DNA of 64,000 nt from Amoebophrya sp. A120 (GCA_905178155.1 CAJINV010000004.1:7563820-7627819), one strand, 5' to 3'. Counted from the first letter of the stretch, positions 6,151 through 58,089 are shown. Notes: generated from the sequence alone by a model not told the origin. Numbers and translations are program-made.

Positions 6151-9100
6151 TTACAGCTCCTTCTTCATGTGCCGCTCCTTCAGAAAGATTCCGGCATCGG
6201 TGTCGAGCTTCAAGGTCACCGGACCGAGCCGGAGCACCGTTTTCCAGAAGACGACGAACAAGCGAAAAAACGGCATGTAGAAGGGCTGGAACAGCAACAC
6301 ACCCGTGAAGTACGGCGCCGATTTGCACCACGGGGACCCCGCAAACCGGAAGCCCAGAAACGACGCAAGCCAGTCGACATCCACCTCTATCAAATGCAAA
6401 AATGTCTGGGTCGGGAAGAGTCATGCTGCTTTTGCATGACGCGTAAGGTCTGGCATGGAAGCTGTAGCATCACAGATTTCGAGAAGCTTCCGCAATGCCG
6501 AATTCCGCAATGCCACATTTTGGTGACAGAAAGTGGGCAGCTTTTGCTGCCTATGCATGAGAGATTTTTATGTGTTGTGAAATGCGCATCACAAGTTCGC
6601 ATTCCTCCAGACCCAGACATATTTGCAGTTGATAACCTCGTAGCCGTCCTTGAACAGGTCGAAGTGGTAGTCCTCCAGATTCGCTGGCACGCCGCCGCAG
6701 GAAATTGTATCAAACGCAAATATGTCTGGGTCTGGAAGAATGCAAGTTTGTCATGCTTGTTTCACATGACTCTGAAATCTGTCATGTTGGGAGACTAAGG
6801 GCAGGGCGTCCCTGTTTAAAATCAAGACTACAAACTTAAGCCGCGTACTCGGTAAACTCTAAGGTACAAACTTGAACAGCGCGATTTCTATCGAGAGACA
6901 GCAACAGAAACTCCTGGGACGGCTGGGACGTGAGTTTTGTTGATATCTAGGTAGAAATAGCACTGTGCAAATTTCGTATCCTAGCACCGAGGGAACCAAA
7001 ATAAAAAGTAAAAAAGGAGTGAAGCGAAACACTATGACACAGCCCCATCTACATCAAAAAACCATCCTAGAAGCTGGTAGCTCGAATTCTAGCAAGACAG
7101 GAAAAAGTCTTGAAGAGGAGTTGCGATCGTAGCACCAACATCCAAGTCCAAGGACTAACATGCAAATGGCCAGGTAAACCTCGAGGTCGGTATGACATGC
7201 ATGACAAACTATGACGACCAGGATAATGTGCTACGAGACCAGAGGAGAGCATGACCAAACCGAGAAACCGCATGACAAGAGAGGGCCACGTTGCAACCAA
7301 TTCGAGAACCAGGATGGAAACATGAGTGCGAAAAACCCCTAGGAAAAAACTAAAGAGTAACTAGTATATAAATAAGTAGCGCGCGTAGTAAAACTAGACC
7401 GGTCAAACCACTTCTGCCTGTACCGTCTCTATTCTTTTTTCCCTTGCCACCCTAAGAAGTGGCACAACAATGCTAATCATACAAGAGCGATTTGATCATG
7501 GCGTGCAAGAACAGGCGCACGTGCCTAGTTTTCATTCCCAAAAGGCAAGAGCCTCTGCATACAAAATGCCAGAAACATCGGTCAAAATACAAACAAGATC
7601 GGACGACGCCGATGAAACCGAAGTGACTCTGAAATCTGTCATGCAAATTACCCAAGACCCCCATTTTGCTGTCATGCAGAAACGCAGTTTGTCATGCAGA
7701 ATAGGCAACACCTAGAAGCTCACAAACTTGTCATGCTGAGCCAGCACTTGTGGTCTCCTCATGATACGCCACCCAGCATCACAAGTTTCCAGACCCAGAC
7801 ATTTTTGCAGTTGATAAATTGGAATCAAGTACAAGATCGCAAGCTTGGCGGACCACATCAGAAGGCAGTGCATGGGCATCATGTAGGCATAGAGCAACCC
7901 CTTGCGGTGCGCGTCGGCGTCTTTCAGGGTCAGACCCTCGATTCGCACCGGGTAGTAGGTGCCGCGCAACTTCTTCAAAAACCGCAGGTACAGCGCCCAG
8001 CCCGCGTCGGCCCACTTGTCCGCGAGGTAACCGGTTACCGGGAAGCGGAAGTCGACCCAGTCGAAGGAGTAGTATCAAGTGCAAAAATGTCTGGGTCTGG
8101 AAATTTGTGATGCTAAAATATGAGTGGTGGGCGCACTGCAATACGCAGTCAAGCATGACAAATTTTTGAGCTGCTCTTGTGTTTCCTTTTCCGCATGGCA
8201 AACTGCGTTTCTGCATGACAGACAAGAGGCCCTTTTCCTGATCCTGCATCACAGATTTATGAGTCATGCCAGACACGCATGACAAACTTGCATTCTTCCA
8301 CTTCCAGACCCAGACATATTTGCATTTGATAAGTAGTGAATCGTTTCGATTCGGTCGGCGTGGTGCTCCTCCTTGTGCTTCTTGCGGTCCGCGAAGCCGA
8401 AGAGTTCCAGTGTCTGGTAGAACCACTTGGCGCCGACAAACCGGGCGCTCCACGGGTTCCAGGAGGTGAAGGCGAGGGTGTTGGTGTGGTACCACTCGTG
8501 CACCCGCACGTCCTATGCATTGCAAAAGTATCGCACTCGTATGCAGGCATTACAAATTTCCCCAGCATGAGAATTGAAATTTGTACTGCGGATTTACCTT
8601 AAGAAAAAGATTTGTAATGCATGACTGCAAGACGAGTACGATGCTTTTGCACAGGATACGTCCATCCACACGACGACGTTCCAGATCAGCGCGAACATCG
8701 GGTCCCAGCAGTTGATATGAAATGCAAAGATGTCTGGGTCTGGAAGAATGCAAGATTTGTCATGCATATTTCTCATGACACATGATGCCTGTAATGCATG
8801 ACCCAGCACCGCAGACTACTTTTAGAGGGCTTTCTGATGCGCCTTCCGCATGAGGAATGCCCTGTCCGCGTAGCACAAACTGGAGCCCTCTTGCTGGTCA
8901 TGCAAGAATACAAATTTCTTTAGAATCCAAAAACACCATGACAAGTTGCATCCTTCCAGACCCAGACATATTTGCAATGCATAATTGACGAAGATCAGCA
9001 TGTTCAGCGCCCACAGCATGGTCGGCTGGTGGATGACCACACGGTACACGTGCGGCGTGCGGGAGTACATGCTATGGAACAAGTGTCAGAATGGAAATTC

Positions 9101-10134
9101 TCAAAGTGGAAATAATTTGTGATGCATGAAATGCGACACCAAAAAGACTGTATTGCAGAGGACGCAATGGAGACTGACTCTTGTGCTTCTACGGGTTCAG
9201 AATTGGGCTGCTGATTAGCACGAGAGAAGGGCACACCTTTGCCCTAATTAGCATGACAGACATGTTGTTTGAGTGCCCGGGAAATCTGTCATGCGCCGAT
9301 GAGAAATGGGAATGGCGCTTCAAACAACTGGAATCGTTTTTTTGCATTAAAAATTATTTTCCCTTTGAGGATTTCCATTCTGACACTTCCATACATGCGG
9401 GGGTCCACGTAGTGGTGAAAGAAGGCCCAGGGGAACCCGATGGTGTGGTCCGCTTGCCAGGATTCGAGCATCACCATGTGCAGGTACAGGTGGACGATGA
9501 CGAACGCGAAGGGCTGCAACGCCAGCGCGAGCAGCAGGCGGGCGGCAATCACGTGAACCCAGGATTCCGCTCCGGGGTACAATGCGTTAGCTTCCCACTG
9601 GGTCACCAGGTAGACGAAAAATCCGCCGGTGAACACGTAGATGAAAAGGAAATCAAACACAACGAAGTATTTTTCCCAGCTATCGCGTTCCTGCATGAAA
9701 TTTTCGTACAGCGGGCCCCACTCCTTCATGTCGATGGCTTCTCCGACGACTCTCCCGTCCGCATCACGAGAAGCCCCGCGCGGCAGAGGTTCCTCGTCGA
9801 GTTCTTGGTTCTGTTCATTTTGCTTTGTTCCCATGGTAGTAGTTCTTGGAGATGACGCATGTTGCTGTTGATCTAGTACTCTGGTCTGCTTGCTACTAGA
9901 GGACTTGTCACCACAACGACGTTTACTGGTTGATGTGGAACAACTACTCGCCGGTGACTTGGAGCTGCTCTGCTTCTGCTTTTTCGACGTGGTGGGGGTG
10001 GTCCCGCGACTGCGCTGGATGGAGGTAGAGGTAGTTGTCGTGCTGCTCTTGGAAGACGACTTTGTAGTTGTCGTTGCTTCTTCGCCTCGATGCTCCTCGA
10101 GAAGCGTCGGCGCAGCCGGTTGCGTTACTGTCAT
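6151..10134 (-). CDS. His-box membrane lipid desaturase-like protein (TMEM189/PEDS1/FAD4-like), ~534 aa, 7 exons
   Basis: Removing 6 introners gives one ORF with TM segments and His boxes HLYLH, FFHHYVDP, HEWYH, HKEEHH, whose order resembles the Kua/TMEM189 desaturase domain. Confidence 0.6.
6388..6634. mobile_element. Introner family A (247 bp)
   Basis: TATcaaaTGCAAAAATGTCTGGG...CCCAGACATATTTGCAgttgATA; DR acctc; join DGYEV|DVDW; GT-AG register possible. Confidence 0.9.
6708..7816. mobile_element. Introner family A expanded to 1109 bp by a nested insertion
   Basis: Family A TIRs; DR aattg; join LIPI|SCGG. Confidence 0.88.
6785..7469. mobile_element. LTR-like segment nested inside an introner
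   Basis: TGTTG...CAACA termini, TATATAAATAA at 7365. The insert is bracketed by a 20-bp duplication (6767-6786 = 7624-7643). Confidence 0.45.
8073..8331. mobile_element. Introner family A (259 bp)
   Basis: TIRs; DR agtag; join TIHY|SFDW. Confidence 0.9.
8514..8658. mobile_element. Introner family B (145 bp)
   Basis: TATnnnnTGCAAAAGTATCGYACTCGT TIR; DR cgtcc; join WMD|VRVHEW. Confidence 0.9.
8716..8983. mobile_element. Introner family A (268 bp)
   Basis: TIRs; DR gttga/attga; join IFVN|CWDP. Confidence 0.88.
9073..9393. mobile_element. Introner family F (321 bp)
   Basis: TATGGA..AAGTGTCAGAATGGAAAT TIR; DR catgc; join DPRM|YSRT. Confidence 0.88.
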
Positions 10135-10837: not shown

Positions 10838-12583
10838 TCAGCTCTGCGCAAACATGACCATTTCCGGCATTGCCTTTTCTAAAATGTCTGCCTCCTTGTG
10901 CGCGATGTTTTCATTTGGGACGTCCAGAGGGTGTTGCTCTACAAACAGCATCTTCCCGATCAAATTTCCGCCGTTGTACCGGTCCGGCGGCGCTCCCTCG
11001 TCGAAGAGCGACAACTCGTACCAGTGCGGCGGGTCCGATTTCGGCGGACAAATTTGCAAAAAATCCTGCTGCGCACCCCCAACCCGGGCTTTCGCCATCC
11101 GCCCGAGAAAAGGAATCTTTTCCGACCACTGCAAGATCGACGCGGAGGTCTTCGCCCCACCGAAAATGTCGTTTTGCAGCAAATCGAAGAATTCGCTGCT
11201 ACCCGCGACCGCTTATCAACTGCAAATATCTCTGGGTCTGGAGTGGAAGTTTGTCATGCTTGTCTCTCATGGCTCCGAACTCTGTGATGCATGAGCAGGA
11301 TGAGAGTCGCTTGTCTGTCATGCAAAAGCGCAGTTTGCCATGCAGAACTCACAACAGACAGCAGCTCAAGAACTTGTCATGCTTGGCTGCGTATTGCAAT
11401 GTGTCCACCATTCCCAAGCCAGCATCACAAGTTTCCAGACCCAGACATATCTGCAGTGGATACTGCTCCGTCCTTCGCAGTTTCGTCGTCTACTTTGTGG
11501 TATGCAGTGCAAAAGTATCGTACTAGTAGAAATCGCATTACAAATTCGGTCAGCATGACAAATGAAATTTGTCATGCGGTTTTACCTTGGTATGGAGATT
11601 TGTCATGCATGACTGCGATTACTACGAGTACGATGCTTTTGCAATGCATATGTGGAAATCGTAGACCACGTCCCAGTGCACCTTCCCGGTGGTTTTATCA
11701 ACAAACTTCGCGTGGATGTTTTCCACCTTCTTACTCAAGTCGATCCGCGGCCGTTTGTCGATGTTCCCGGTCAAAAAAGACGCGGTCGGGGGCATCGGGT
11801 GGCCGGCGGCTCTGTCGCAGATGAAGTTCTTGTTAAATTCCCCCTTGTCGTCAATGAAGTTGGTCGCGACGATATCCAAGGAAAAAACTGTGTTAGTGTA
11901 ACTATCTTTGGCTGACAGCATTACAAATTTGCAGCTCTACATGACAGAGAAAACCTCTCATGCGTGGCTTGTAAGGGAAAACACACACGAAGAGAGGACT
12001 TCATGGCTGTCTAGCATGACAGGTGTAACTCTGTTGCATGTTCAGTTCTGCATCACAGATTTACACTTACACAGTTTTTTTCTCGCATAGACGATGTTGG
12101 GGGACTGGTAGGCGACGGTGACTTTCAGATCGTGTTTGTACGCTTTGTGATAGTTGTTGGTTTGCAGGTCCAGGAGTTTCCGCCCCTCGTCGATGAAAAA
12201 CTCCTGGTATGGATTGTAAAAATGTCTGGGTCTGGAAGGTTGGAACTTGCATTGTAATGCTAGCTTTCCATACCTAGAGCTAGAAAATCTGTATTGCATA
12301 ACCAACAAAAGTCGCAGCCTCTTTTGTCATGCAAAAACGCAGTTTCTCATGCGCATTGCCTATGAGAAACCGTTTCGGGAAGTTGTCATGCCGGACTGCA
12401 ACATTCGGAAATGTTTTCATCATGCACATTTTAGCATCACAAGTTTCCAGACCCAGACATTTTTGCATTTCATACCTGGTTCTTCATCGCCGCGCTGGCG
12501 ACGTGATCCGTGATCCCCTTGACCGCGGTGTTCAGCGGGGCAGGAAACCCCGCCGCGAGAGCAGTGCCGACGGCGCCTGACAT
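10838..12583 (-). CDS. Hypothetical protein (~280 aa), 5 exons
   Basis: MSGAVGTALAAGF...; four introners removed give an 843-nt continuous ORF ending at stop 10838. Confidence 0.75.
11214..11462. mobile_element. Introner family A (249 bp)
   Basis: TIRs; DR ccgct/ctgct; join KDGA|VAGS. Confidence 0.88.
11501..11650. mobile_element. Introner family B (150 bp)
   Basis: TIRs; DR tgtgg; join YDFH|KVDD. Confidence 0.9.
11873..12089. mobile_element. Introner family E (217 bp)
   Basis: TAT..AAAAAACTGT TIR; DR gacga; join PNIV|ATNF. Confidence 0.88.
12208..12474. mobile_element. Introner family A (267 bp)
   Basis: TIRs; DR cctgg; join MKNQ|EFFI; GT-AG register possible. Confidence 0.9.
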
Positions 12584-15850: not shown

Positions 15851-18800
15851 CTAAATATGCACCGGCATGCACCCTTCGCCGTAGTAGACAAATGGTACAT
15901 TGCCAATCTCCGCGGCGGTTTCCCCAAAGAAGCTGTTACTTATGATCAGTGCCGTCGCACGGGACAAGCCTATGTACTCGGTCCAGGCGCGATGGTAGCC
16001 CGCTTGAGACATCCCAGCGGTTCGGTCCACGTGCTGGATGGCTGCCGTTGATGTTGAAGACCCTGTGTTTCTAGTTGGACTCGTCGCGCTACTGCCACTA
16101 CTACTATCTGCTACTGCAACGAACTCGTTCTCCACAAAGCTGGCGACTTTCCCGGCTTGCACTAAGGCCTGGACTTCCTCGGTGACCCAGAACTGCTCGG
16201 AGTCGGCAGAAAAGTACCAGGGCGTGGATGATTCCAAAATCTCCGCCTGGACTAGTTTGTCCTCCACTTGGACGGCGCATTCCAAAAACGAGGTTATCGT
16301 CGTCAACCCGTGCCGGGGTGGGTCTTTGAAGGAGTGCAGCGTTTCGTTCCCCGCGCGGAAGTGCAAACCGAGAAAGCTTTTCTTCGCCCCGAACTTACTC
16401 AACGGGTACAGCACTTTCGCGTGCGGCTTGAACAAAATGTTCCAGACCTGCGCGACCCAGCCGGAGGTGAAGGCGAAAAAGCCGTAATTATGCACTGCAA
16501 TAGTATTGTACTCGTATAAATGCATTACAAATTTGCTCAGCAACATGAGAAATAAAATTTGTAATGCTAATTTACCTCAAGGAAAGGATTTGTAATGCAT
16601 GATTTCCATACGAGTACGATACTTTTGCACTTGATAGTAATCCTCCTGCAGCCAATCGTGGATCAAGGCGTGGTATGCGGTGCAAATATGTCTGGGTCTG
16701 GAAACTTGTGATGCAAGGAACGGAATAGTGAAAACAAAACACTGTAATGCGCTGCCCAGCATGATAAGTTTTCCCGTGGTTCAGAGTTGCGTACTCGGCA
16801 TGAGAAACTGCGTTTCTGCATGACAGGCAAGACGAGCTCTTCGCGGCCACGCAATACAGAGCTCAGAGTCATGCCAGACTAGCATGACAAATCTCGCAAT
16901 CTCCCAGACCCAGACATATTTGCAGTGCATACGTGGAAGCGGAGGTTCGTCCCGATCACGAGCACCTCGGGGGACACGCGGAGGCCGCGGAGTGTGCGGT
17001 CGACCTGGTGCTCGGAGAGGTCGACCAGTTGCACTCGGTTGTTGAGTGGTAAATCTTCTATCCGGACCCGCCAATCGAGAAAGGAGGGTAACAGCACCTC
17101 TAACAACGGCCGTGGGTGTCGGATGTCGATGAGGAATCCTCTGTGCGTCGCGACGGCGAGCAGAAACAGGGACAGGATCCCGTGCAGCCGATCTCCGTGT
17201 CCGCCGCACATGGGCAGCCCATAGCACGCGGCGACGATCGCGCCTTTCAGGTTGCTTGGCTGCCCGGACCGCCACTTTCGGTGCTGCTGGATGTAGTCCG
17301 CCATGATTTGCTTGAACAAATCGGTTATAAATTGAAAAAGTAACGTGCTCGTATAAATCCATTACAAATTTTCTCAGCATGAGAAATAAAATTTGTAATG
17401 CGGATATACCTTGAGAAAAAGATCTGTAATGCATGATTGCAATACGAGTACGATACTTTTGCACAGGATATCGGTGCTTCTTTGCCGGTGGGACAAGCCC
17501 GCGAAGAGCTTCGTCTCTTCACTCGTACTATGCATTGCAAATATGTCTCGTGGGTCTGGAAACTTGTGTTGCTGGTACTCGCATCGCAAAGTAGCCAGTT
17601 GTGCAGCGTGACAGCATCACAAGTTCTTTTCCTCCGCTGTTTGCGGATTCATTCGTACTTAAACTTAGCATTACAAACTGCCTCTTCTCAGCACGCCAAA
17701 AAAATTGGCCATCAATCCCATTTATGCATTACAGATCTTGTTGTCCTTGAAGTTCTGCATCACAAATTATCCAGCCCCAGGCACATTTGAATTGCATACG
17801 TGCGCAGCCCGATGGAAGAAACTCCCTGGTCAAAGTGTAGGTTGGGAAGATCGGACGCTTCGGGGTACCGGAGCCACCGACAAGAAACTGTAAGTAGTGA
17901 TTTTTTTGATTTTCTTTTCGTCTTCCAATGGACGCATGGCGATAGCAAAGGTAAATCAAAATCAATACACATACTCCGCTCGTCTGTGCATGAGAACAAC
18001 TTTCGCGTCAAATATCATAGTGTACTACCTGTAGTATTCGGCTTCAAATTATTGATCAAATCGTGGTCAAAAAACGTTCCACAGAGATCCGGCCCCTGCC
18101 TGGTGTACTGCTTCCGCCTCGCATATTCGATAAAAGTATGACCTGCAAAAGTATCGCACTCGTATAATTAAATGCATTACAAATTGAAATTTCCTCAGCA
18201 TGTGCATGGGAGATAAAATTTGTAATGCATGACTGCAATACGAGTACGATACTTTTGCACAAGATAAAAAGTCACTGGCTGCAACGTTTTCGCCGCCACC
18301 GCCGCGCCGGCGAACTCAGTACTGGCTGAAGCCTCCGTCTCTCCGTCTTCAGATATTAAAGCAGCACTCGCCGTTTCGTTGCTTGCGGTATCTTCTATTT
18401 CACTGTCTGCTTCCATTTCTACTGCGGGACCACGAGCTGCCGACGGCCTGGTGACTTCTATGATGGTTTCCTGCACAATTTGCGCGATCTTGTTCGGGCT
18501 CAGCTCGTCGAGCGTGGATTCCGTCGGGAAAACCACCACCCGCCCGGGAATTTCGTGCTGGGCCTCCACTTTCTCTTGCGGGGGACGGATGGCGGACAGC
18601 TCGGGGACCCTGTTTGGGATAGAAGAAAAGGGAGTATAGTACGTGCATCACATAAGCGCTATGTATTTGTGATAGAAAAGGGACAACTTCTACGTCCAAT
18701 AATAAAGTGCCTGAAGTTCATGTTCCATCACTTCAGTGCAGACCGATAGTGGTCCTGCAGTTTTTCTTCTTGTGGCAGACGCAGATCACAATAAACTATT

Positions 18801-41200: not shown

Positions 41201-44200
41201 CATCGCGTCTGCTGGGGAAGAGGACGACGGCGTGATCTTGTTGTTCCCCGCAGAGTTTATTACGTCCCCCCCCGCCGGCGGCGCGGCGACGGGATCGCTC
41301 TGGTCGTGCTGTCCTGGTTGCTGCAAAAGACCTGAGCCCGACTGCAGTTCTCGTCCTGTATCAAAAGAGGTATTCGACCGCAAGAGCCCATACCGGTTGT
41401 CTTCCTGCCTCATGAACCGCGGACTGGGCTCGCTCTTTTCCCGCTCGCGGAGCTTCACCAAGGTTAACGCCGCCTTCATGTCACCCGCACCCGCGGAGAT
41501 GTTGAAGATCCTTTCCAAAACGTCCGCATTTTCAAGCTGTCCCGAGACCGCGTAGTCATCGACATTTGCATTCGATGTTGTGGACTGCATCGACATGGTA
41601 CTATCACGCATCAACTGCCGCGAAGAGGAGTGCCTGTCTTGAGGTGCTAGTCCACCCTTGTTGCGAAATGCCAACAGCCCAGATGAATCACTGTGCGAAA
41701 AGCTGTTTGGGCCGTTTTTCGGAAGTAGGCCTCCCGCTGGCGTGGTCGTTCCTTTGCTGTTTGCCGGAGTAGACACGATGTCCACAACTCGCGGGGCGGC
41801 TTTGTTGCCACCACTTTCGCTTGCTCTACTTGGCAAAAGATTTTTATCTTCTTGTGCATCTCTAGCGCCTACTGCGTTTTCCACGGGCGCCGCTGAACCG
41901 GAGGAGTCCACCATGATCTCCCCCAAGTCGTTCAAACGCAGGGATCCGCGTATGGATGTGTCAGAGTTGAAATCGACAAAGTTGAGATAATTTGCCATGC
42001 ATAAAATGGATGCCAGTTGGAGCCGAGTTTCTAAGTGGCGCATGACAAATTTCGGCGGTCCCGAAATGCAGTTTGTCATGCTGTTTAGGCAAAGAAGAGT
42101 GATTTTCTTATGCTACTTTAGCAGCTCGAGCTGTAACCCCAAACAGGCTTACAATCGGCCTCACTTGCCTGCTCTGCAACACACGTGCCTCGGGTCATGC
42201 ATTTTATGCATTACAGATTATTTCAACTTTGACGATTTCAAGCCTGACGCTTCCATACCACGCTGGTGGAAAACACTACCTGTTGTTCCGGACGGAGACA
42301 CAGGAGTAATTCCAGCTGTACCAGCGATCCCGCTGCCATTGGTCAGCGATTTTCGCAGTGACGAAGAAGATGCTCCTGTTTGTTGTTGTTGTTGTTGTTC
42401 GAGCCCGCCGGACAACAAACTCGGACTGCTGCCCCCGGCGGACACCAAACTTCCGCCCGGAGCAGGTACAACTACCCCAGCACCACCGACGTCTTTCGTT
42501 TTCGTCCGGCTACTTGTAGTGCTGTCCTTTTGATTTTGCAACTTTTCCGACTCTTTTTTCTTTTCCGCGTCCTTCTCGATGGTCTGGTTCACCACTTCAT
42601 CGACCCCGCAACACGTGGCGCCGATGTTGGCGTGCTATGCATTGCAAATATGTCTGGGTCTGGAAACTTGTCATGCTAAAATGTGCATGATGGCAACACT
42701 TCCGAATGCAGACCAGCATGACAACTTTCCGGAGCACTTTCTCATAGGCAGCCCGCATGAGAAACTGCGTTTTTGCATGACAAAAATGGCTGCGGCTTTT
42801 GTCGGTTATGCAATACAGATTTCCCAGGAGTGTAAAGCTAGCATTACAAGTTATAACTTTCCAGACCCAGACATTTTTGCAGTCCATACGTCCACCTCCT
42901 CGACGATCTGGGCCGCGGCCATGGAGCTTTCCTCAGCGAGTAATGCATTTAACTCGTTCATGGGGTCTCTCGCCTGCGGGATGTTCATCACTCCCAGCTG
43001 CTCCAATCGGTACCTCACATCTGTCTCGTTCGCGTCCCCGAGCACCGACTCCCGCTCCGTCCGCAAGCAGGTCTGGCGGAAATGCTGCCGGGAATTCGGG
43101 ACGTTGGTCACTTCGTTGTTGTTGATCCTGCCGCAGATCTCCTCCGCCAGCTTCGCCACCCGGTTCTTTTGCAGATACGGCGCGAGACCCGACAACCCCA
43201 GCCACTCCAACTTCTTCTCCAACGGGAAGGACGACTGCCGCACGGAGTTCCGCGCGACCTCGCACACGTCAATCGTATCAAAAGGAAAAATCCCTCCTCG
43301 TCCCCATATCGAAAACGAAATTTGTGATGTTTACATGAGTACACAAATCGACTTGTAATGCTAGAAGGCCAAGAGACGCAGCTGTGGCCTCGTTTGCAGG
43401 CAATTGATCATGCTGTTTCCACTTCCACCAGCTGCCCCCTGTCATGGTGAAGATGCAAGGCTTCATCTCCACGCCAACCAGCACTACAGTCCGCATCTTT
43501 TCCCTTCTGGCATGACAAAGCTGATTTGTGGCCACAAATCTGCATCACAAATTTCTAGTTTGAGTATGGGGTGGGGGCATTTTTCATTTTGATAAATCGG
43601 CGACAGCCGCCAGTAGGTCCGGGCGACCGCGTACTCCTCTAACAAAGGCTCCCGCGTGTTGTGAAACATGACCGGGTCGTCGGTGGATAAGGTCACGTTC
43701 AAACCGCGTTTGAAAAAGGAGAAAAACGGGTTCTTCGCGTACTCCAGAAACAGCGCGTTGTTCGACTGCGGGGAGACGGAAATCCCGATTTGCGCCAGAT
43801 AATACACGTACTGCATCACGGGGGAGTGGTGCAGTCGGATCCCGTGGGCGATCGTATCCGCGAGCAGAAACCCCACGTCCAAATTCAGCAGGTCGCCCGC
43901 CTCCCCGCAGTGCGGCCGGTAGTGGAACTGGTTCAGACCGAGTTTCTCCCGGAGTAGATTCAACACCCGGATGTTCGCGTAGATAAAGTAGCTGTAGTAG
44001 GCGTAGGGTGGATTCGCGTTCTCGAAGCTCCAGTACCCCGGTTCCGTGACCAACCGGTTCCGCCTGTCTTCCGCGACCGCGGTCTGCAGCGCCACCGTGT
44101 CTTCCTGGGACTCGTCATCCACGGTGTCAAAGGCGCCGACGTGGGTTATGGGATTCTCAAATGTTACATTCTCAACTGTAGTTACATGATTTGTCATGCA

Positions 44201-47055
44201 GAAGCGCTATCATGCTTCGCACGCTCAAGCTTCTTCGCATGACAAGTTTTCGACTCGCTAAGTGGCATGCTATACCGTGCAATTATGCAAGGTTCCAATG
44301 CAAGACGCGCAAGGTTCCCCGTTTCACTTTTGGTGTTCTTGCATCACAAATTCATGTACCAGTTCAGAATGTAACGTTTGAGAACGCCATATGGGTCAAG
44401 AACTCCGCGAGGTCCGGATGCTTTTCGGGAAACAGGGTCGCTTCGAAGAGCGGGAGGAAAAGGTTGGAAAGCCACTGCTGGAAGTTTTTCACGATGTTCA
44501 ATTTCCGGTACAATTGGAACAGCCGCGGAAATTGGATCATCCACCGATTCTTCTCCGAAAGCAAAGGCTTCCGCTGGTCTATCAAACGCAAAAATCCCCC
44601 CTCCCCATATCGAAATGGAAATCTGTGATGCAGGATTTGAGGCACCAAATCGACTTGTCATGCTAGAAGGCCAAGAGCCGCCGTCGTGGTCTCGTTTGCA
44701 GGCAATTTGTCATGCTGTTTCCCACTCTCAGCTGCCTCCTATCATGCTGAAGATGCAAGGCTCCCCCACGCCACCCAGCACTACAGTCCGCATCTTTTCC
44801 CGTGTAGCATGACAAAGCTGATTTGTGACAACAAATCTGCATCACAGATTTCCGTTTTGATATGGGGAGGGGGGATTTTTCCTCTCAATATGGTCGGAGG
44901 GAAGGTTGAAGGACAAAGCGCGCGGAGCGTCGGTGGCGGATGGATGGGCAGTTATTGCAGTGAAAAGTGCCCCCCACCCCTGAAAGTGCAAAATTTGTGA
45001 TGCGAAGTTTCCAAATGAAAACTTTCTGTCATGCATGGAAGGAGTATGGATATTTCTGATGCAGAGTCTAGGCGTGTATCGCATCGCCTGCATGACAAGC
45101 GCCGCTCTTGCTGGGGCCTTTTGCAATACAAATTTTTGCTATTCACGATTGAAAACCTGTGATGCTGATAGATGCAAGAGCGCGAATGTTTCATTTGGAA
45201 AGGTTTGCAATACAAATGCTTTCAAGTTCGGGGGTGGGGGCATTTTTCATTGTAATAGCAGTTGTGTCGGATTTTGACGGCGCGACGGTTTGCGGACGAG
45301 CCTGTGTAGTTGCGGACGCAATGAGATTGCATATTTGGATTTCATCTCTGTAACAAATGTCTCGAACTCTTACTCTATCTGTTACGCTTACGGTTACGGA
45401 TCATTGTTGCATGACACATGTATTATCGCCGCGCTCTCAAATGAAATGGCTTGTAGTCGTTTTGTTTCATCGCATCACTACCATGTATAGTACATGTTCG
45501 TTCTCACGCACTTATTTCAACAAAACTTTCTATGCAAAGCACTGCAAATCCTACCTCTCCCCCCGCGTTTCCCCTTTGCAGCACCCATTGCGACAGCTTG
45601 GTCCACTCGTCGGGCGATTTACCGTAGATGCTCAACCGCCACTCCGTGTGGCACCATTCCCGCCTTTCCAGCCCGTTCAGCAGCTCCCTGGTCAGCTCCG
45701 CCAGGTACCGCCCGCCCATCTGGTTGTCGGTTTTCAAAAACACTTCCCGAAACGCGGATTTCCCGAGAGGCGAAAATCGGGAATTAAAAATGTCGAACCG
45801 GGACATAACCCGGTGGTCCGCCTGCATTTCGAACGCGTCCAGGTTCAGTGCGGACTCTTCCACTTCTAGTTTGTCGCAAAAGTCCTGCAAGGTCTGGCAT
45901 TCGACATTGTTATCTTGATTTTCTTCTTTACTCGCTGTGCTGCTATTCTTCTTTTTCACCGTGTAGGAAACTACGTCGTTTTTGTTGTGAATGAATTTCT
46001 TCCTAATGAACTCAAACAAATGCGAGCTGCACATCGCCGCGCTGTGGTGGATGTGGTTGTCCACCTTCACAATGTGGTTGAAATCGACCCCGTTGTTCTT
46101 GTTCTCGGTCGTTTCATCGACGTAGTGGAGCATCCTGTAGAGTTCAAACTTCTTTTCCAACAGCTTCAGCCGGCAGTGCGAATAGGACCTGGTCGGGCCG
46201 TCGGTGCGCAGATGGGCGACGCGGGACAGATCCGTGTAGAACTCCTCCAAAGTCGGGACCTGCTTGGAAAAAAGCGAATTCGGGTCCTTCCTGCTGGTGC
46301 TGCTCCGCTCGCGCTTTCGCGAAGTAGTGGTCGACGCCGTCGGGGAAGTGTGGTCGTGACTAGTATGTTCAACACCTTGAACTTGTGAGCCACTTCTTGA
46401 TTTTCTACCAGCATCACCTAAAGGTCGCGGTCCCGCCGCATTTGTTGTTGTACTAGCTGTTGGTTCTCCTATCGTGTTGTTTTCGGAGCTCGAATTGTCA
46501 CTGGCGGAGGTTCTCGCTTGCGCTTGTTTGTTGTTGTTCGACGTCCGGGTAAAAATACTACTACTTCCTGGAGATGATCCATGTTGTGCTCCATCGACGT
46601 TCCTCGGCGGTGAAGAAGTAGAGGTCAAAACGTTGTACACTGTCACCACTCCGGACTCATCCATGTAGTAGCTGAGCGGCTGCTTTTTGTTCAAGTTCCG
46701 CGCCTGCTGCTTTTCGAGGTTTTTACCCAAAAAACTCCGGCCGCATATGGCGCTCTCAAACGTTACATCCTCAACTGTTACATGAGTTTGTAATGCAAGA
46801 GTAGTAAAAGCCAAAGGAGGGAGGTTGCGCCTCTAGCATTACAAATTCCGCACAGATTTAGCTGCTGTTTAGCCCTTCGCAAATTTGTCATGCGAAGCAG
46901 CTTGATCGTGTGGATCTTGATGGTAGTTTAGCATGACAAATCCATGTAACACTTGAGAATGTAACGTTTGAGAACGCCATACCGCAGGGAGCGTACTTGG
47001 AGCGCAGCTCCAGCAGCTCGCGCAGGTTGCCGCGGACCACGGGGATTTCGTCCAT
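35229..47055 (-). CDS. AMPD: AMP deaminase with a very long low-complexity C-terminal extension (~2,770 aa; 5' end may extend further)
   Basis: KVDNHIHHSAAM, FDIFNSRFSP, EWRLSIYG, FDTVDDES, YRPHCGEAG, LSTDDPVMFH.TREPLLEEY, DVCEVARNSV. 12 introners and 1 GT-AG intron removed give an 8319-nt ORF. Confidence 0.9.
35512..35767. mobile_element. Introner family A (256 bp)
   Basis: TIRs; DR actcg; join SRRE|SVAN. Confidence 0.9.
36721..36983. mobile_element. Introner family A (263 bp)
   Basis: TIRs; DR ccgca; join DYSA|EQKR. Confidence 0.9.
37428..37599. mobile_element. Introner family B, degenerate (172 bp)
   Basis: TIRs; DR agcga; join KNIA|VHDR. Confidence 0.85.
37731..37993. mobile_element. 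Introner family A (263 bp)
   Basis: TIRs; DR cagac; join PHSL|QISN. Confidence 0.9.
39186..39450. mobile_element. Introner family A (265 bp)
   Basis: TIRs; DR ggctt/ggctc; join AQES|RNLE. Confidence 0.88.
41951..42257. mobile_element. Introner family F (307 bp)
   Basis: TATGGA.G.GTCAG TIR; DR ccgcg/ccacg; join HQRG|SLRL. Confidence 0.85.
42636..42888. mobile_element. Introner family A (253 bp)
   Basis: TIRs; DR cgtgc/cgtcc; join EEVD|ANIG. Confidence 0.87.
43276..43594. mobile_element. Introner family C (319 bp)
   Basis: TAT..AAAAAT(C/G)CCCC TIR; DR aatcg; join WRLSPI|DVCEVARNS restores a conserved AMPD motif. Confidence 0.9.
44147..44391. mobile_element. Introner family D (245 bp)
   Basis: TIRs; DR tgggt; join FLTH|VGAFDTVDDE. 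Confidence 0.9.
44580..44890. mobile_element. Introner family C (311 bp)
   Basis: AAAAATCCCCCCTCCCCATATC TIR; DR tggtc; join LPSD|QRKP. Confidence 0.9.
44953..45257. mobile_element. Introner family C variant (305 bp)
   Basis: TATT.CA.TGAAAA.TGCCCCC TIR; DR gcagt; join DTTA|HPSA. Confidence 0.87.
45302..45554 (-). other. Canonical GT-AG intron
   Basis: GAG|gtagg...cacag|GCT, phase 0; frame restored. Confidence 0.7.
46746..46981. mobile_element. Introner family D (236 bp)
   Basis: TIRs; DR ccgca; join YAPCG|RSFL. Confidence 0.9.
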
Positions 47056-48511: not shown

Positions 48512-51500
48512 TTATTTCAGCAGGAGGCCAACTCCCTCGTTAGTGCCGTCCCACCTCGCTTCCTCTTTCTCAGTTCTGTTCCCCCACTTGTAGGTGTTTC
48601 CGTACTGATCGGTCGGATAGGCGTGAATCCGTACCTGCGAGAAGGTATTCGAGACAGTGTTGTAAAAAAGCCGGACGTGAAAAGACACCCTCTCCAGCGT
48701 CGCCCGTGGCGCTTTTGTGCGAAAGGGAGAAGCGTCAAAAAATGTCACTCCTTCGTCGACCGCCTCCTGCTGCAACTCGTCACTCTGCTCTCGTAGAGCC
48801 TCTATGCATTGCAAATATGTCTGGGTCTGGAAGTTTGGAACTTGTGATGCTAACTTTGGATTCTAAAAAAATCTGTATTGCATGACGAGCAAGAGGAGCC
48901 CAGTTTGTGCTACGCGGGGAGGGTATTTGTCATGACGGATAGGCATCAGGAAGGCCTCTAAAAATGCGTGATGCTAGAGCATGCATCACAGACATCATGG
49001 GTCATGCAAAATATGCATGACAAACCTTCCATTCATCCAGACCCAGACATTTTTGCATTTGATAGCCTCGCTGGGCTTGACATACCGTGTCTTCCAAATG
49101 AACTGCAGAACCAAGGTATCGTCTGTTAGTGACGACAACCTGTCGCCGTTCGTCATGACAATTCTTCGCGGAGGGTTAGCGCCGCGGCCCGGCGTTTTGT
49201 TTTCTTCCAATGCTGCTGCGCCGTAGAACGTCCGCGTGTGGTCCGGGTCTTGCAGGTCCACACTCTTCAAAAATTTCCGCAGCACGACACGGGATACCAC
49301 GTTGAAATACAGGTTTTCTCCGGCAACTAACTCTTTGTCGAGGCCATACATCTTCCCGTTGCGCAAGCTTTGCAGGTCGAAGGATTTTTCACCTGCTTCT
49401 GTGGAACTACAGGCACTTCTTCCGCTCCTTCCGCTGCCCGGGTTGAGGCAGCGTTGTAGCATTTTTCCATCCGCCGGACGTCGCGCTTCTCTCGCTTCGC
49501 GGGCTTCTATTTCTTCCTTCTTTTTTTTCTCAAATTCTTCTTTTTTTTCCTCTGCAGTTTTACACCGTGCGTCGTCGAGGTCAAAGCTTAACAAACTGAA
49601 TTTCGAAGACACCGCCCACGGCGGTATGTCTTCCCCGTGCCGCCGCAAATATCGTGCGGCCGCCGAGCCAAGGTCAAGCACGGATACTTTCGCCTGTGGT
49701 GCGTAAATTGGAACCTCCTTCCCGACGCTTTTTCTTCCACTTGATCTGCTCTCCGCCTCCTTTATCACCTCTGCGTGCAGCAGCCGCTCCGTCACCATGC
49801 CAGTGAAGTCGAACTTTTTCATCAGCTCTTGCAGATTCTTACGCAGCTTTTCCGCGCGTTCGGGGTCCGTCCGAGGTAAGGGTTTGCTCTGGTCCGTCAG
49901 AGGTGAGCGTTTGTAATAGGCGACTGTCGCATATTCCGGCGGGACATATTTGGCTTTGTCCAACAAAATTCGCTCCAGCTCTCCCGGCCCGCTCGGCGGA
50001 GCTGGAAACTTGTTTTCATCTTCGCCGGGGCTGAAAATTTTTGACAACCACCTCCTGCTGACATCAGATATATTCATATTGTATAACTCGGGATCCTATG
50101 AACTGCAAAAGTATCGTACTCGTATAAATGCACTACAAGTTTCCTCAGCATGAGAAAGAAAATTTGTAATGCTGATTTATTACCTTAAGAGAAATATTTG
50201 TAGTGCATGACTGCGATAATTACTACGAGTACGATACTTTTGCACAGGATAGATCCCTCCCCGTTCGCAGGGTTTCGATCCAGCGGGCCCAATACGACCG
50301 CTTCTTCTCTTCTATGGATTGCAAAAATGTCCGGGTCTGGAAAGAATGGGATTTGTGATGCTACCTGTCGACGATAGAAAAATCTGTATTGCATGAGCAG
50401 CAAAAGCTGCTTGAATTTGTGCCACCCGGAAAGGGCATTTCTCATGCAGAATAGGCATTACCAAGGCTTTGCGAGAACTGTGATGCTACGGCATGCATCA
50501 CAGGCATCTTGGGTCATGTACAATTGTGCATGACAAACTCCCCGAATCTTCCAGACCCAGACACTTTTGCATTTGATATCTTCTTCCTCGCTACAACTTG
50601 TTGGCCGCGCACCACGGAAAAGAGAACTGATAGTACAGCTGGATGAAATAGTATCCCACGAAAAAACTGTTTCACTGTGGTGATTTTGCAAAATCTGCAT
50701 CACAAATTTGTTACGCATGACACTGAAAATCTGTCATGCGGGGCTCCTACGGGAAAACACAGCTAGAGATCCATTGTCTTGCATGTGTAGCATGACACAC
50801 GCTTCTGCGATCCATTTTCTGCATCACAAGTTCACAGTGAAACAGTTTTTTCTTGCGATAAATAGCAGAGGACCTGCTCGTGGTCATGGCGCGGACATGA
50901 AATAAATGTATCGCAAGGAAAAATCCCCCCTCCCCATATTGAAGAGGTAGGTTTTCGAAAATTTGTGTTGCTGATTTGAGGTCACAAATCACGTCTGTGT
51001 TGCAAGAAGACAAGGGCAGCAGCTTCCGTCCCATTATGGAGGCGGTTTGTCATGCTGTTGTGCCAACATCACGGACGCTTCTCATGCTAAGCGCCTAAGT
51101 CAAAGCATCTCTGCTCAGGCTTGATATGGGTCTGCAGTCCTCTCTAGCAAGACAGATGTGATTTGTGTACTCAAATACAGCAACACAAATTCCGCTTTCC
51201 ATATGGGGAGGGGGGATTTTTCCTCCCAGTAAAATGTTGAGAATCCTCCCCCTGCCCCTGCACAGAGGACGATGTTGAGCTTCCCATTGTAATTGTATCC
51301 TTCTCCGCCGGAGGTTGAAAAAATTCTTGGTAGAAGTAGTTCTCGAACTCCTGCAGCGCTTTGGTAAAATCTTGCACTTTTTCGTACTTTATGACTTTCT
51401 TCACAGCTGGCTCCTTTCCTTGCTCTCCTGCCTGTTTGGTCGTGTTCGAAACCAGCGCGAAATTCAGACGGAGGTAAAAGTCACGAGCACGGACACTGGA

Positions 51501-53643
51501 GTATGTAGTATTGAATACTACATCGAGATCTTCGGAATAATTTTTGTAAAAATTCCGCATCTGCTGTGCCCGCAAGAGAGGCCGCAACCTCTCCCACATT
51601 TGCGCCGCCTGCTTGTTGTGTTTTTCGTCCGGGGTGGGATCGTGTTTCAGCCTCTCTAGAGCAAGTTGTGCGTGGACCACGTCTACATACTGGCCGATCG
51701 TCCTGGACAGGTGCGATGAAGAATTTGTATTCAGTGCAAATATGTTATTTAGGTCTGGAAGGATACAACTTGTGGTCGTGCTACCTTTGGACGGTACATA
51801 AAATCTGTATTGCATAGATAGCAAAAGAGGTCCAGTTTTTTATACGTCGCGGAGAGGGCATTTCTCATGCGGTATGAGCATCAGAAAGCCCACCTCGCAG
51901 AATCTGTGATGATGCTAGTACTAGGGCATGCATCACAGACATCATGGGTCAATGTCATGGAAAATATGCATGACAAATAACCTGGCATCTTTCCAGACCC
52001 AGTAGATCGATAGTTGCAACGCGTATGCCGGCTTCAGTCGTTCCTCGATTCGTTGTTCCTCGATTGTCCGATATTGAACAAAAAAAGCACGTAGGTGTAA
52101 CTTTGTCGTGATGCGCAACATGCAAGATGATTGCCTCTGTCATGCTGGACATGCATGACAGGTCCCAGCATTCAAGTGCCTTTTCACGTGCTATGATCTG
52201 CGCATGACAGGTTTATTTTGCTGTAATTATGCTGTTCCGCCAAATCCAAAGAAGTTACACCTACAACAATGTTTTTTCTTCACATATTCGACCACCGTCA
52301 CGAACCTGAAGGTCGTGCAAAGCAACGTCCTCCAGAAGAACCGTACTGAGCTTCTCATGCGGCTGAATTTTTATCACGACAGGAGGCTGCAGCTCCGGGT
52401 CTTGTTCGGGGGAGGTGCCGATAATTTTCTCCTTCGCGGGGGAAAATTTCCTCCGGGTCGACGTTTTTAGAAGTTTACGTTTTACTACTTTTACTTCCGC
52501 TCGACCACGTTTTACTACTTTCCTCCGGGTCGACGTTTTACCACTTTCCCGCTTTCCTCCGGGTCGACGTTTATTTACTGCGTCTACTTCCGCTTGCAGA
52601 TGCCAGTTCCAGGGGTCTGCTTCGAAGTTCTTAGGGAGATCTTCTCCTGCGACAACTTTCCGCCACAGCAGATGCCGTTGGTACAGCTGAAACGCATCCA
52701 TGTTCACCAGGTCCTTGAGTTTAATTAGCAGATGCGGGTACTTCCTAGCTCTCCTCGTCGTCGTCCCAAGCGGTTCTTGTGACTTTTGCCCTGTGAGCAC
52801 CTTCTTGTTTGAGGACATCTTCAACCCAGAAGGCGCAGCTGTTCTTCGTTCCCTTGTGTCCTCAATCACCACCTCCACGACGGTGTCGTTGTCCAGCGGC
52901 GCAGCGTCGCGGGCCGCCAGGGAGTTAGTAAGCGTTGACTGTTCCACTTCGGTAGTAGAGGGGTCATAACCTTCCCCGCCGCGCGGAATAGGATTAAGAT
53001 CGACTGATATAATCGGCCTTTGTGCCCTCGACGAAGATGTTGAACTCGGTTCCTCAATCCAGGGAGGACTAGGACTTCCCCGTTTTTCGTCGACGTCGTC
53101 GTGGATAGTTTTTGCGACGAGTGCACGCCCTTCATCTCCACGACCCGGAGTAGGAGAGCTCCAAAGTAGACCTCCAGACAACTGCTGGCAGGGGCCGTCT
53201 TGGTCTTCGTCATCATCGTCGCTGCTCGATGAATACGAAAAATGCGAAGGAGCCGACGACGACCCAAGCCCCGAGCCTCGACTAGTGGAGCCAACTACAC
53301 TGGAAACGAGTGGTCTACAACTTCTTCCCGAATAAGCTACATCGTCACCCCTGCTTCGTACATCAGAGGAGGAGCCCTCAGAAGCATAATCGTGAGTAAA
53401 AAACACGGTCGGTCCCCGGGCCGCCACCGCACGTCTCCAGTTCCCTTCGGTAAATTCCCAGACAACGTGCTCGGCATCGTAGGCATCTTTCACGACAGAG
53501 CGAGACCCAGCGACGCGCACAAGTCCCGCTTCGCTGAAGAGAATCACACCGGTGCAGCAACTGATGAAGATTCCTGCCGCAGCTCGCCAGCCACGCTTAG
53601 CAGGCAACGAGAATGAAAGGCGAAGGCAACGTCGGCAGAACAT
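48512..53643 (-). CDS. Hypothetical protein with N-terminal hydrophobic segment (~1,122 aa), 8 exons
   Basis: Seven introners removed give a 3369-nt continuous ORF from ATG 53643 to TAA 48512; no family recognised. Confidence 0.7.
48803..49064. mobile_element. Introner family A (262 bp)
   Basis: TIRs; DR gcctc; join PSEA|LREQ; GC-AG register possible. Confidence 0.9.
50097..50251. mobile_element. Introner family B (155 bp)
   Basis: TIRs; DR gatcc; join TGRD|PELY. Confidence 0.9.
50313..50578. mobile_element. Introner family A (266 bp)
   Basis: TIRs; DR tcttc; join SEEEE|KKRS. Confidence 0.88.
50652..50860. mobile_element. Introner family E (209 bp)
   Basis: GAAAAAACTGTTTCACTGTG TIR; DR aatag; join SSAI|SSSC. 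Confidence 0.88.
50909..51231. mobile_element. Introner family C (323 bp)
   Basis: TIRs, right end GTA; DR aaatg; join SQH|LFHV. Confidence 0.87.
51728..52025. mobile_element. Introner family A, degenerate, direct repeat lost (298 bp)
   Basis: Eroded TIRs; flanks atttg/tgccg; removing element +5 nt restores LKPA|SSSH. Confidence 0.7.
52072..52286. mobile_element. Introner family E, degenerate (215 bp)
   Basis: TAT..AAAAAA..GTAGGTGTAAC TIR; DR tccga/ttcga; join DGGR|TIEE. Confidence 0.8.
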
Positions 53644-57960: not shown

Positions 57961-58089
57961 TTCTGACGCCGGAGGGACACATTATAGTCTAACTTTCTTG
58001 CGTATGGGCAAAAAGGTAAAAAACAAAGCTACGACATGTTGCAGCACAATGGAGTAATACCTGATTATGTTCATCGCCCGACGCCCCGG

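What the first reader, a model, noticed from the sequence alone, without database searches (positions are those of the whole stretch)
6388..52286. 42 TIR elements with one boundary rule (5-bp DR + TAT...ATA) act as non-canonical introns
Seen: 42 inserts in coding exons, in 7 TIR families, share TAT...ATA ends (40 of 42; two end GTA) and a 5-nt flanking repeat (33 perfect, 8 with one mismatch, 1 lost). Removing element +5 nt restores the frame every time, including inside conserved AMPD and MePCE motifs. Sliding the boundary through the repeat allows GT-AG in only 2, GC-AG in 1 and GA-AG in 3; 36 fit none. Known: Amoebophrya introners with inverted and direct repeats have been described, and to my knowledge their excision mechanism is unresolved. 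Inference: a dedicated precise removal system (altered spliceosome or endonuclease/ligase) coexists with normal GT-AG splicing in the same genes.
Basis: partly seen in the sequence, partly recalled or inferred. Interest (0 to 1): 0.95.

Follow-up and report, generated by a model that had tools for sequence, protein, structure and literature searches.

The report
Transposon introns lacking normal splice signals
Genes of the marine parasite Amoebophrya are interrupted here by 42 short transposon-like inserts that are missing to the base from probable transcripts wherever these could be checked, although most lack GT-AG ends; the elements are already published, but their ends point to a likely fixed cut position and a likely relaxed spliceosome that can now be tested.

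Summary
Observation confirmed in every count: 42 elements, TAT...ATA ends (40), 5-bp direct repeats (33 perfect, 8 with one mismatch, 1 lost), frame restored by removing element+5. Contigs of probable RNA runs skip exactly element+5 at 24 of 42 (15 directly, 9 by length); a probable DNA run keeps them. These are the published Amoebophrya A120 introners (Farhat 2021); a database protein named A120 matches one gene exactly.

Added here:
(1) The 5-bp rule holds in a second assembly (203 of 285 perfect).
(2) Mismatched repeats allow only one fixed cut: 1 nt before TAT, 4 nt after ATA. A register that varies per intron is not excluded.
(3) End variants are polarised: U at +2 and A at -7 never vary in 177 oriented elements, while their mirror positions do (Fisher p 0.018; wider set 0.0008).
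(4) All 301 elements share an inward-pointing motif, often 31-33 bp apart, likely transposase sites.

Best reading: MITE-like inserts removed by a relaxed, hairpin-guided spliceosome with a candidate branch A at -7 (0.55); main rival, a Euglena-like non-spliceosomal route (0.28). No transposase was found, and no lariat data exist here.

The parts
6388..6634 (-). element, family A; perfect 5-bp repeat; no RNA test. For every element the inferred intron runs from end+1 down to start-4 on the minus strand
6708..7816 (-). element, family A, 1109 bp, with a nested insert of about 850 bp; perfect repeat; no RNA test
8073..8331 (-). element, family A; skipped as 264 nt in X1, X2, X4
8514..8658 (-). 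element, family B; skipped as 150 nt in X1-X4
8716..8983 (-). element, family A; mismatch at repeat position 5; joint 8711|8985 shows at most 4 nt of the upstream copy kept
   Evidence: X1, X3, X4
9073..9393 (-). element, family G; skipped as 326 nt in X1, X2, X4
11214..11462 (-). element, family A; mismatch at repeat position 4; joint 11207|11462 shows at least 4 nt of the upstream copy kept
   Evidence: X1-X4
11501..11650 (-). element, family B; skipped as 155 nt; AT-AC at the inferred cut
11873..12089 (-). element, family F; skipped as 222 nt
12208..12474 (-). element, family A; skipped as 272 nt; the only GT-AG at the inferred cut
16489..16636 (-). element, family B; skipped as 153 nt in X4
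16674..16931 (-). element, family A; skipped as 263 nt in X4
17326..17470 (-). element, family B; skipped as 150 nt in X4
17529..17798 (-). element, family A; mismatch at repeat position 2; joint shows at least 2 nt kept (X4)
18137..18266 (-). element, family B; no RNA test
19049..19227 (-). element, family B (by eye); no RNA test
19520..19668 (-). element, family B; no RNA test
19713..19886 (-). element, family B; no RNA test
20024..20183 (-). element, family B; no RNA test
25867..26104 (-). element, family C, in the Bin3/MePCE-like gene; no RNA test
26327..26487 (-). element, family B, in the Bin3/MePCE-like gene; no RNA test
26613..26891 (-). element, family E, in the Bin3/MePCE-like gene; no RNA test
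33732..34012 (-). element, family C; mismatch at repeat position 1; an X1 piece starts at 34013 (one side only); spanned whole by an X5 contig
35512..35767 (-). element, family A; X1 contig joins 35506|35768
36721..36983 (-). element, family A; removal fits X1 contig length
37428..37599 (-). element, family B; removal fits X1 contig length
37731..37993 (-). element, family A; removal fits X1 contig length
39186..39450 (-). element, family A; mismatch at repeat position 1; X1 joins 39180|39451; both repeat copies confirmed in X5
41951..42257 (-). element, family G; mismatch at repeat position 3; X1 piece ends at 41945 (read as at least 3 nt kept)
42636..42888 (-). element, family A; mismatch at repeat position 2, junction letter not shown; removal fits X1 contig length
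43276..43594 (-). element, family D, in the AMPD domain; +5 collinear with 29 of 29 homologues
44147..44391 (-). element, family C, in the AMPD domain; +5 collinear with 28 of 29 homologues
44580..44890 (-). element, family D; removal fits X1 contig length
44953..45257 (-). element, family D; removal fits X1 contig length
45302..45554 (-). canonical GT-AG intron (253 nt) in the same AMPD gene; needed to close the X1 contig length
46746..46981 (-). element, family C; the X1 contig ends before it, not bridged
48803..49064 (-). element, family A; X1 joins 48796|49064
50097..50251 (-). element, family B; removal matches database protein P0001
50313..50578 (-). element, family A; removal matches P0001
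50652..50860 (-). element, family F; removal matches P0001
50909..51231 (-). element, family D; TAC on the transcript-5' arm; removal matches P0001
51728..52025 (-). element, family A, decayed; TAC on the 5' arm; repeat lost; P0001 fits only if 4 or 5 nt of the upstream copy are kept
52072..52286 (-). element, family F; mismatch at repeat position 4 (silent); spanned whole by an X5 contig; removal matches P0001
35232..47103 (-). host gene: AMP deaminase with a long low-complexity extension, 12 elements and one GT-AG intron
23944..27050 (-). host gene: Bin3-domain (MePCE-like) protein, 3 elements; 5' limit approximate
48515..53642 (-). host gene of P0001 (1122 aa, no Pfam family), 7 elements

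Best explanation
The 42 inserts carry terminal inverted repeats and 5-bp duplications, are likely non-autonomous DNA transposons, are missing as element+5 nt from probable transcripts, and are likely spliced out by a relaxed spliceosome that the terminal hairpin would position at one fixed register. Shown: the anatomy, the frame logic, the exact skips in contigs, their presence in a probable DNA run, and removal of related copies in either orientation. Inferred, spread (about 0.8): one transposase with a 5-bp staggered cut and TA ends moves all families, binding a shared inward-pointing motif (T[GC]T[ACG][AT]TGC) set 32-34 or 40-45 bp from each end and often 31-33 bp apart. Inferred, cut site (about 0.75): the upstream exon keeps 4 nt of the first repeat copy, so the intron reads N-UAU...AUA-NNNN. 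Inferred, chemistry (about 0.55): arm positions 8-30 pair and bring the ends together, while the loosely paired outer positions stay open; U at +2 serves as the donor signal, A at -7 as the branch point, and the 3' cut is measured from the hairpin rather than read from AG.
For: The same contig also lacks a GT-AG intron. Register: 8716 gives k<=4; 11214 gives k>=4; 17529, 39186, 41951 and 33732 give k>=2, 1, 3 and 1; P0001 fits k=4 or 5 at 51728. Polarity: in 177 oriented elements, arm position 1 is T in 177 of 177 5' arms against 174 of 177 3' arms, and position 3 is T in 172 against 177 (Fisher p 0.018). In a wider set, 8 of 8 third-position variants sit on 5' arms and 5 of 5 first-position variants on 3' arms (p 0.0008, worst case 0.009). 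Wobble pairing would predict the opposite side for the third-position variants. Arm positions 4, 5 and 7 do not covary. G...G termini at k=4 number 31 against 18.8 expected in 223 elements (G...G plus A...C, p 0.021 uncorrected). Farhat 2021 reports 83 of 89 spliceosomal proteins and U2/U4/U5/U6 in A120, U1 not detected. The U2 spliceosome removes non-GT/AG introns in Fritillaria.
Against: At k=4 only 15 of 42 start with G, 3 of 42 end in AG and 1 of 42 is GT-AG. AG is barely enriched (22 against 17.1 in 223). Position +5 favours C on 5' arms (115 against 87, p 0.004 uncorrected), against the usual +5 G. No 5'/3' asymmetry at arm position 5 (-9), where U2 pairing would be expected. A branch 7 nt from the 3' cut is very short (recalled). 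The six contig constraints would fit some single register 40% of the time under random registers, and the upper bound rests on one junction whose repeat mismatch was not confirmed in a DNA run. Strands in the second assembly are inferred from a codon model; 4 of 17 variant elements could not be oriented, one of them with GAT on both arms. The RNA status of X1-X4 is the tool's guess. No transposase was found.
Confidence: 0.55

Rival explanations
1. A separate, non-spliceosomal RNA system (nuclease plus ligase, or the unknown Euglena-type machinery) recognises the hairpin and the TA ends, cuts 1 nt before and 4 nt after the stem, and joins the exons.
For: The terminal dinucleotides are nearly free. 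39 of 41 introns fold end to end (z -4.1 and -7.7). Orientation does not matter. Euglena nonconventional introns also use a stem with a short 5' and a longer 3' spacer (3 and 5-6 nt) and leave as circles. U1 was not detected in A120.
Against: The two invariant bases are U at +2 and an A near the 3' end, the ones a spliceosome would need. There is a weak G...G excess at k=4. No such enzyme is identified. The Euglena sequence code is absent here.
Confidence: 0.28
2. The spliceosome removes them but picks, intron by intron, the best available site inside the repeat; any register gives the same mRNA when the repeat is perfect.
For: Random registers fit the six constraints 40% of the time. 6388 and 48803 are canonical only at k=3.
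Against: At 17529 and 33732 an AG end at k=1, and at 41951 a GT start at k=1, were available and are excluded by the contigs. The polarised invariance implies fixed positions.
Confidence: 0.08
3. RNA polymerase skips the hairpin at the direct repeat during transcription.
For: A strong hairpin is flanked by a direct repeat.
Against: The 11214 junction has only 2 shared letters. The 51728 repeat is lost, yet the gene model removes the element in frame. This route gives no reason for strand-polarised end conservation.
Confidence: 0.04
4. The skips are reverse-transcriptase template switches, and the genes are pseudogenes or retain the inserts.
For: Hairpin plus short repeat is the classic substrate (recalled). 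All evidence here comes from assembled contigs, not direct RNA reads.
Against: All 42 would break the frame if retained. AMPD stays collinear with homologues. 11214 has only 2-nt homology. Farhat reports over 60% non-canonical introns genome-wide.
Confidence: 0.03
5. The elements are excised from DNA (as ciliate internal eliminated sequences are), and the skipped contigs are DNA.
For: TA-bounded ends; X1-X4 are only guessed to be RNA. 1212 joints were not shown.
Against: X5 contigs at flat depth 42-47 span two whole elements and run into ten others. None of the 15 listed joints is exon-to-exon. The X1 contig also lacks a GT-AG intron.
Confidence: 0.02

Closest known systems
Introner elements / non-canonical introns of Amoebophrya sp. 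A120 (Farhat et al. 2021, PMC7789003)
   Same: Same thing: inverted repeats starting TAT + 7 variable nt + A-run, 3-5 nt direct repeats, mean length 240 nt, RNA-supported, mixed with GT-AG introns. A protein named A120 is identical to one spliced gene here.
   Different: In the text I read, the border 'remains unknown', repeats are given as variable, and general transposase mobilisation is rejected. Here one 5-bp rule, one likely register, polarised end conservation and a shared spaced motif are proposed. Its Fig. 3 and S19-S25 are images I could not see.
A120 introner families in Gozashti et al. 2025 (PMC12130899, supplementary file 8)
   Same: TIR DNA elements of 100-350 bp with mostly non-canonical sites; fam38 is annotated '5-bp TSD, TA/TA Termini', Ginger.
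   Different: Automated TSD calls there range 2-5 bp, and families are assigned to several classes. The phrase '5-bp TSD' occurs once in that file. I saw about 21 of 58 A120 rows.
Euglena nonconventional introns (Nomura et al. 2025, PMC12501133)
   Same: Terminal pairing, TSD-like repeats, cuts at set distances from the stem with a longer 3' spacer, coexistence with GT-AG introns.
   Different: Code N3-CDG...CHG-N5-6|R with a purine at the exon start; here N-UAU...AUA-N4 with no purine rule (22 of 41) and a long stem.
Fritillaria borealis non-canonical introns (Soo et al. 2026, PMC13326754; Henriet 2019 only through it and a review)
   Same: MITE-derived introns with free ends, removed by the U2 spliceosome.
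   Different: U1 is kept and U2AF is duplicated there; Farhat's Table S6 lists single U2AF subunits, and U1 snRNA was not detected in A120.
GingerRoot / Ginger integrase-like DNA transposons (PMC6839031)
   Same: TA...TA termini and TIRs.
   Different: TSD of 6 bp (GingerRoot, Ginger2) or 4 bp (Ginger1), not 5; no transposase was found here.

Membership tests
Amoebophrya A120-type introner elements | terminal inverted repeats starting TAT + 7 nt + A-run | tested here: met
   T, A, T in 84, 84, 82 of 84 arms; A at positions 11-13 in 72, 71, 81 of 84
Amoebophrya A120-type introner elements | 3-5 nt direct repeat over the exon/intron border | tested here: met
   5 bp in 41 of 42
Amoebophrya A120-type introner elements | repeated, in families | tested here: met
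   41 of 42 have a 71-95% relative in the second assembly
Amoebophrya A120-type introner elements | removed from RNA at non-canonical sites | tested here: met
   24 of 42 skipped in probable-RNA contigs; 36 of 42 fit no GT/GC/GA-AG in any register
MITE / non-autonomous TIR DNA transposon | TIRs with a fixed-length target duplication | tested here: met
   second assembly: 203 of 285 perfect at 5 bp, 2 at 4 bp, 0 at 6 bp, no repeat assumed in the scan
MITE / non-autonomous TIR DNA transposon | short and non-coding | tested here: met
   130-323 bp except one; no Pfam family above its cut-off in 70 frames from long elements and unassigned window regions
MITE / non-autonomous TIR DNA transposon | cognate autonomous element with the same ends | not testable with these tools
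   no genome held; none seen in about 490 kb of loci, which were not scanned in full
MITE / non-autonomous TIR DNA transposon | empty site in a relative | tested here: inconclusive
   protein-level only: AMPD homologues are collinear at 2 sites; no orthologous DNA found
GingerRoot / Ginger | TA...TA termini | tested here: met
   42 of 42
GingerRoot / Ginger | 6-bp (GingerRoot, Ginger2) or 4-bp (Ginger1) TSD | tested here: not met
   5 bp; not filed as a member
GingerRoot / Ginger | integrase-like transposase | not testable with these tools
   no coding element found
U2 spliceosomal intron | GT (or GC) donor | tested here: not met
   GT in 15 of 42 at k=4; U at +2 in 42 of 42
U2 spliceosomal intron | AG acceptor | tested here: not met
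   3 of 42; 22 against 17.1 expected in 223
U2 spliceosomal intron | branch adenosine near the 3' end | tested here: inconclusive
   A at -7 in 177 of 177, but no U2-pairing context
U2 spliceosomal intron | lariat intermediate and snRNP dependence | not testable with these tools
   no raw RNA reads of this organism: X8 gave 71 reads, X9 none
U12 spliceosomal intron | RTATCCT donor (recalled) and a minor spliceosome | tested here: not met
   TATCC on 7 of 42 5' arms; U11/U12/U4atac/U6atac reported absent
Euglena-type nonconventional intron | end-to-end RNA pairing | tested here: met
   39 of 41 predicted folds
Euglena-type nonconventional intron | N3-CDG...CHG-N5-6|R code | tested here: not met
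   ends listed
Euglena-type nonconventional intron | release as full-length circle | not testable with these tools
   needs RNA experiments

The most novel reading that the evidence does not exclude
Amoebophrya runs a second, non-spliceosomal RNA splicing system for tens of thousands of introns. It reads the transposon's own ends (U+2, A-7, the hairpin, perhaps the shared spaced motif), measures a 1-nt/4-nt cut from the stem, and so heals any insertion of this transposon in either orientation at any exon position, convergently with Euglena.
Probability: 0.28. Interest if true: 0.92.

Novelty: already known. Interest (0 to 1): 0.55.

Why it matters
How Amoebophrya removes introns without GT-AG has been open since 2021, and even the cut position was left unknown. 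The elements themselves are not new. What this window adds is a specific, cheap prediction: intron = N-UAU...AUA-NNNN with a branch at A-7. One lariat experiment and one genome-wide recount of mismatched repeats would decide between a spliceosome that ignores both terminal dinucleotides and a new splicing chemistry. Either would explain how a transposon can fill exons at no cost. The shared spaced motif gives a handle for finding the missing transposase, and the single rule would correct gene models whose borders were placed by aligners.

Tried and rejected
No genome is held for this window. No listed holder is on record as RNA.

Element patterns found nothing in viral contigs or prokaryote genomes. 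Rfam: 0 matches. Pfam: no transposase or integrase in 70 frames. Masked window against the 152 loci: no BLAST hit.

Base bias in the 5-bp repeat: a G excess at position 4 (p 0.004 in 171) was matched by flanking positions and fell to p 0.23 with better strand calls (223); rejected. AT-drift of mismatches as a register test was uninformative. TAT was not more conserved than the family cores when arms were anchored on the core.

Farhat's Table S4: all 9 main A120 motifs have T second, which fits k=4. But 8 of 9 also have A second-last, which fits k=1, and the gene models used BLAT, which slides towards GT-AG (recalled). I do not count it as support.

An Rbfox-type RNA motif (recalled) was considered for the internal motif and dropped, because its middle base varies. 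Missing cover of the 15.9-18 kb gene in X1-X3 is not used as evidence. Earlier notes of this scan: none for this genome.

Full report
1. Observation. The 42 elements are 130-323 bp (one 1109 bp) and lie in nine minus-strand genes. Removing element+5 gives stop-free frames throughout; retention would break all 42, and the cut phases are even (14/13/15). At two conserved AMP deaminase sites only +5, not +2 or +8, keeps the protein collinear with 29 homologues (29 of the 120 listed, chosen by length or name).

2. Organism. The one protein found with a 162-aa exon is 100% identical and is named Amoebophrya sp. A120 by its source. It equals the spliced frame over 1122 residues and seven junctions. 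Farhat 2021 describes A120 introners with the same end motif. The finding is therefore a known system seen again.

3. Removal is at the RNA level (shown for contigs; RNA status is the tool's guess). In 7850-17900, contigs of X1-X4 (2 samples, 1 study) skip exactly element+5 at 12 of 12 elements. A 13th joint links two family-B copies with short sides and is read as cross-mapping. Nine joints are flagged 'between: not known', but record coordinates leave no extra letters for the seven that could be checked (one sum needs the tool's 2-nt shift). In 33500-53000 (20 elements), X1 joins 3 directly and 9 more by exact length (565 and 1585 nt), the latter only if a 253-nt GT-AG intron is also absent; 1 is seen from one side and 7 are not shown in the cut tables. 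Ten elements were in neither lay. X5, with flat depth and intergenic cover, spans two whole elements and runs into ten others.

4. The boundary rule is general. One scan of the metagenome collection gave 152 loci of another assembly with the same families. Without assuming a repeat, 203 of 285 paired ends have a perfect 5-bp duplication, against 2 at 4 bp and 0 at 6 bp; most of the 22 five-mismatch rows seen in the cut output are false starts inside the arm. Repeat letters are close to exon background. This is the signature of one staggered cut with little target preference (inference).

5. Shared internal motif. T[GC]T[ACG][AT]TGC, derived from the window, occurs in 42 of 42 elements at 16.6 per kb against 0.5 outside, and in 259 of 259 elements of the second assembly. 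It points inward from each end, with the first copy most often at offset 32-34 or 40-45. Gaps of 30-33 bp make up 37 of 98 and 246 of 654 (random placement: means 4.8 and 33.9, maxima 11 and 49). Copies within a family are related, so these counts are not independent, but the spacing recurs in six of the seven families in the second assembly (all but C). Three helical turns suggests DNA-binding sites for one transposase (inference); opposite copies can also pair in RNA. No transposase was found.

6. Cut register. Where the two repeat copies differ, the transcript shows which copy each letter came from. With k = nt of the upstream copy kept, 8716 gives k<=4 (three runs) and 11214 gives k>=4 (four runs); 17529, 41951, 39186 and 33732 give k>=2, 3, 1 and 1 (the last three are read from piece ends); and the gene model P0001 gives k>=4 at 51728. 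The only fixed register that fits is k=4: one free base, then UAU, and after AUA four free bases. The limits are real: random registers would pass the six contig constraints 40% of the time; the mismatches at 8716 and 11214 were not checked in a DNA run; and contigs drop minor forms.

7. Polarity. Related copies sit in opposite orientations and are both removed (8073/11214, 81% over 166 nt; 8716/48803, 79% over 197 nt), so the signals lie in the symmetric ends. Yet rare end variants are not symmetric. In 177 oriented elements (135 of 186 from the loci, plus 42), T1 never varies on the 5' arm and T3 never on the 3' arm, while the mirror positions vary 3 and 5 times (p 0.018). Pooling all 17 variant elements from the loci with the 2 in the window: 8 of 8 T3 variants are on 5' arms, 5 of 5 T1 variants on 3' arms, and A2 variants on both; 4 were dropped as unorientable (L012, L015, L074, L138), and counting the three with T1 changes against the rule gives p 0.009. 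The orientation thresholds were set after seeing these scores, and the strand rule was checked only on its training set (42 of 42). At k=4 the fixed bases are U+2 and A-7. Base pairing does not explain this: T3-to-C on the 3' arm would keep a G-U pair and is not seen, while on the 5' arm it breaks the pair and is seen. Arm positions 4, 5 and 7 do not covary, and the terminal three pairs form in only 25 of 41 predicted folds, while the inner stem forms in 39.

8. Mechanism. U+2 and an invariant A near the 3' end are what a spliceosome needs for a donor and a branch (established knowledge), and G...G termini are in mild excess only at k=4. A120 keeps most of the spliceosome, and Fritillaria shows that the U2 machinery can drop GT/AG. 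Against this: no G+1, no AG, C rather than G favoured at +5, no U2-pairing context, and a very short branch-to-acceptor distance. I put a relaxed, hairpin-guided spliceosome at 0.55 and a separate Euglena-like system at 0.28. No step of the chemistry is shown.

9. What is in print. PMC7789003: abstract, sections 10-12, 16, 25, 32, supplement parts 2-3 and passages; its figures, which may show the border logos, were not visible. PMC12130899: passages and rows of supplementary file 8 (about 21 of 58 A120 rows; files 13-14 not searched). PMC12501133: abstract, sections 8 and 12. PMC11282704: passages, section 6. PMC13326754: abstract, sections 4 and 30, passages. PMC6839031 and PMC12005148: passages (the latter reports mostly GT/AG introns and a U1 in another Amoebophrya). 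The Roy 2020 preprint: search listing only. Henriet 2019: not read. Searches of the open library listed no paper whose title or abstract opening points to the register, the polarity or the shared motif, and the texts I read do not give them; subscription papers are not covered. Two earlier notes of this scan describe hairpin-bounded non-canonical introns in other dinoflagellates; they are unchecked and not used as support.

10. Verdict. A real, already published system; interest 0.55 because the window turns an open question into two direct tests.

Noticed in passing
window 57900-63700: Array of about 13 sister elements with TAT + 6 nt (not 7) + A-run, the same internal motif, and constant flanks instead of 5-bp repeats. 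On the minus strand most read GT...AG with 62-112 nt spacers, so they may be a canonical-ended class in a repeated gene or non-coding RNA. No Pfam hit, no RNA test.
   Followed up: partly
window 6767-7643: Insert of about 850 bp nested in element 6708-7816, flanked by a direct repeat of about 20 bp that contains the shared motif; no coding match.
   Followed up: partly
window 4590-4717 and 45302-45554: Two GT-AG introns (the first predicted only) carry the shared motif (2 and 1 copies) and may be decayed elements.
   Followed up: partly
window 35232-47103: The AMP deaminase frame is about 2780 codons, with roughly 2000 low-complexity residues after the domain; one 8663-nt X1 contig covers most of it.
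   Followed up: partly
window 35522-35570: About 65 reads of raw RNA run X8 match this element end with two fixed differences and then diverge: a related element from another locus or organism.
   Followed up: no
window 27830-28120 and 57570-57990: An 11-12-bp tandem array with an inverted copy about 70 bp away, and a 76-bp tandem repeat, both outside the gene models.
   Followed up: no
L074:945-1211: Element with GAT on both arms and a two-mismatch repeat, in a stretch with no coding signal; a counter-example to the U+2 rule if it proves to be exonic.
   Followed up: partly
L019:505-1608, L026:632-1465, L055:3862-4492, L054:571-1051, L030:4314-4770: Long elements (457-1104 bp) with perfect 5-bp repeats and no Pfam match.
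   Followed up: partly
window 6154-53642: All nine host genes lie on the minus strand, as in the unidirectional clusters described for Amoebophrya.
   Followed up: yes
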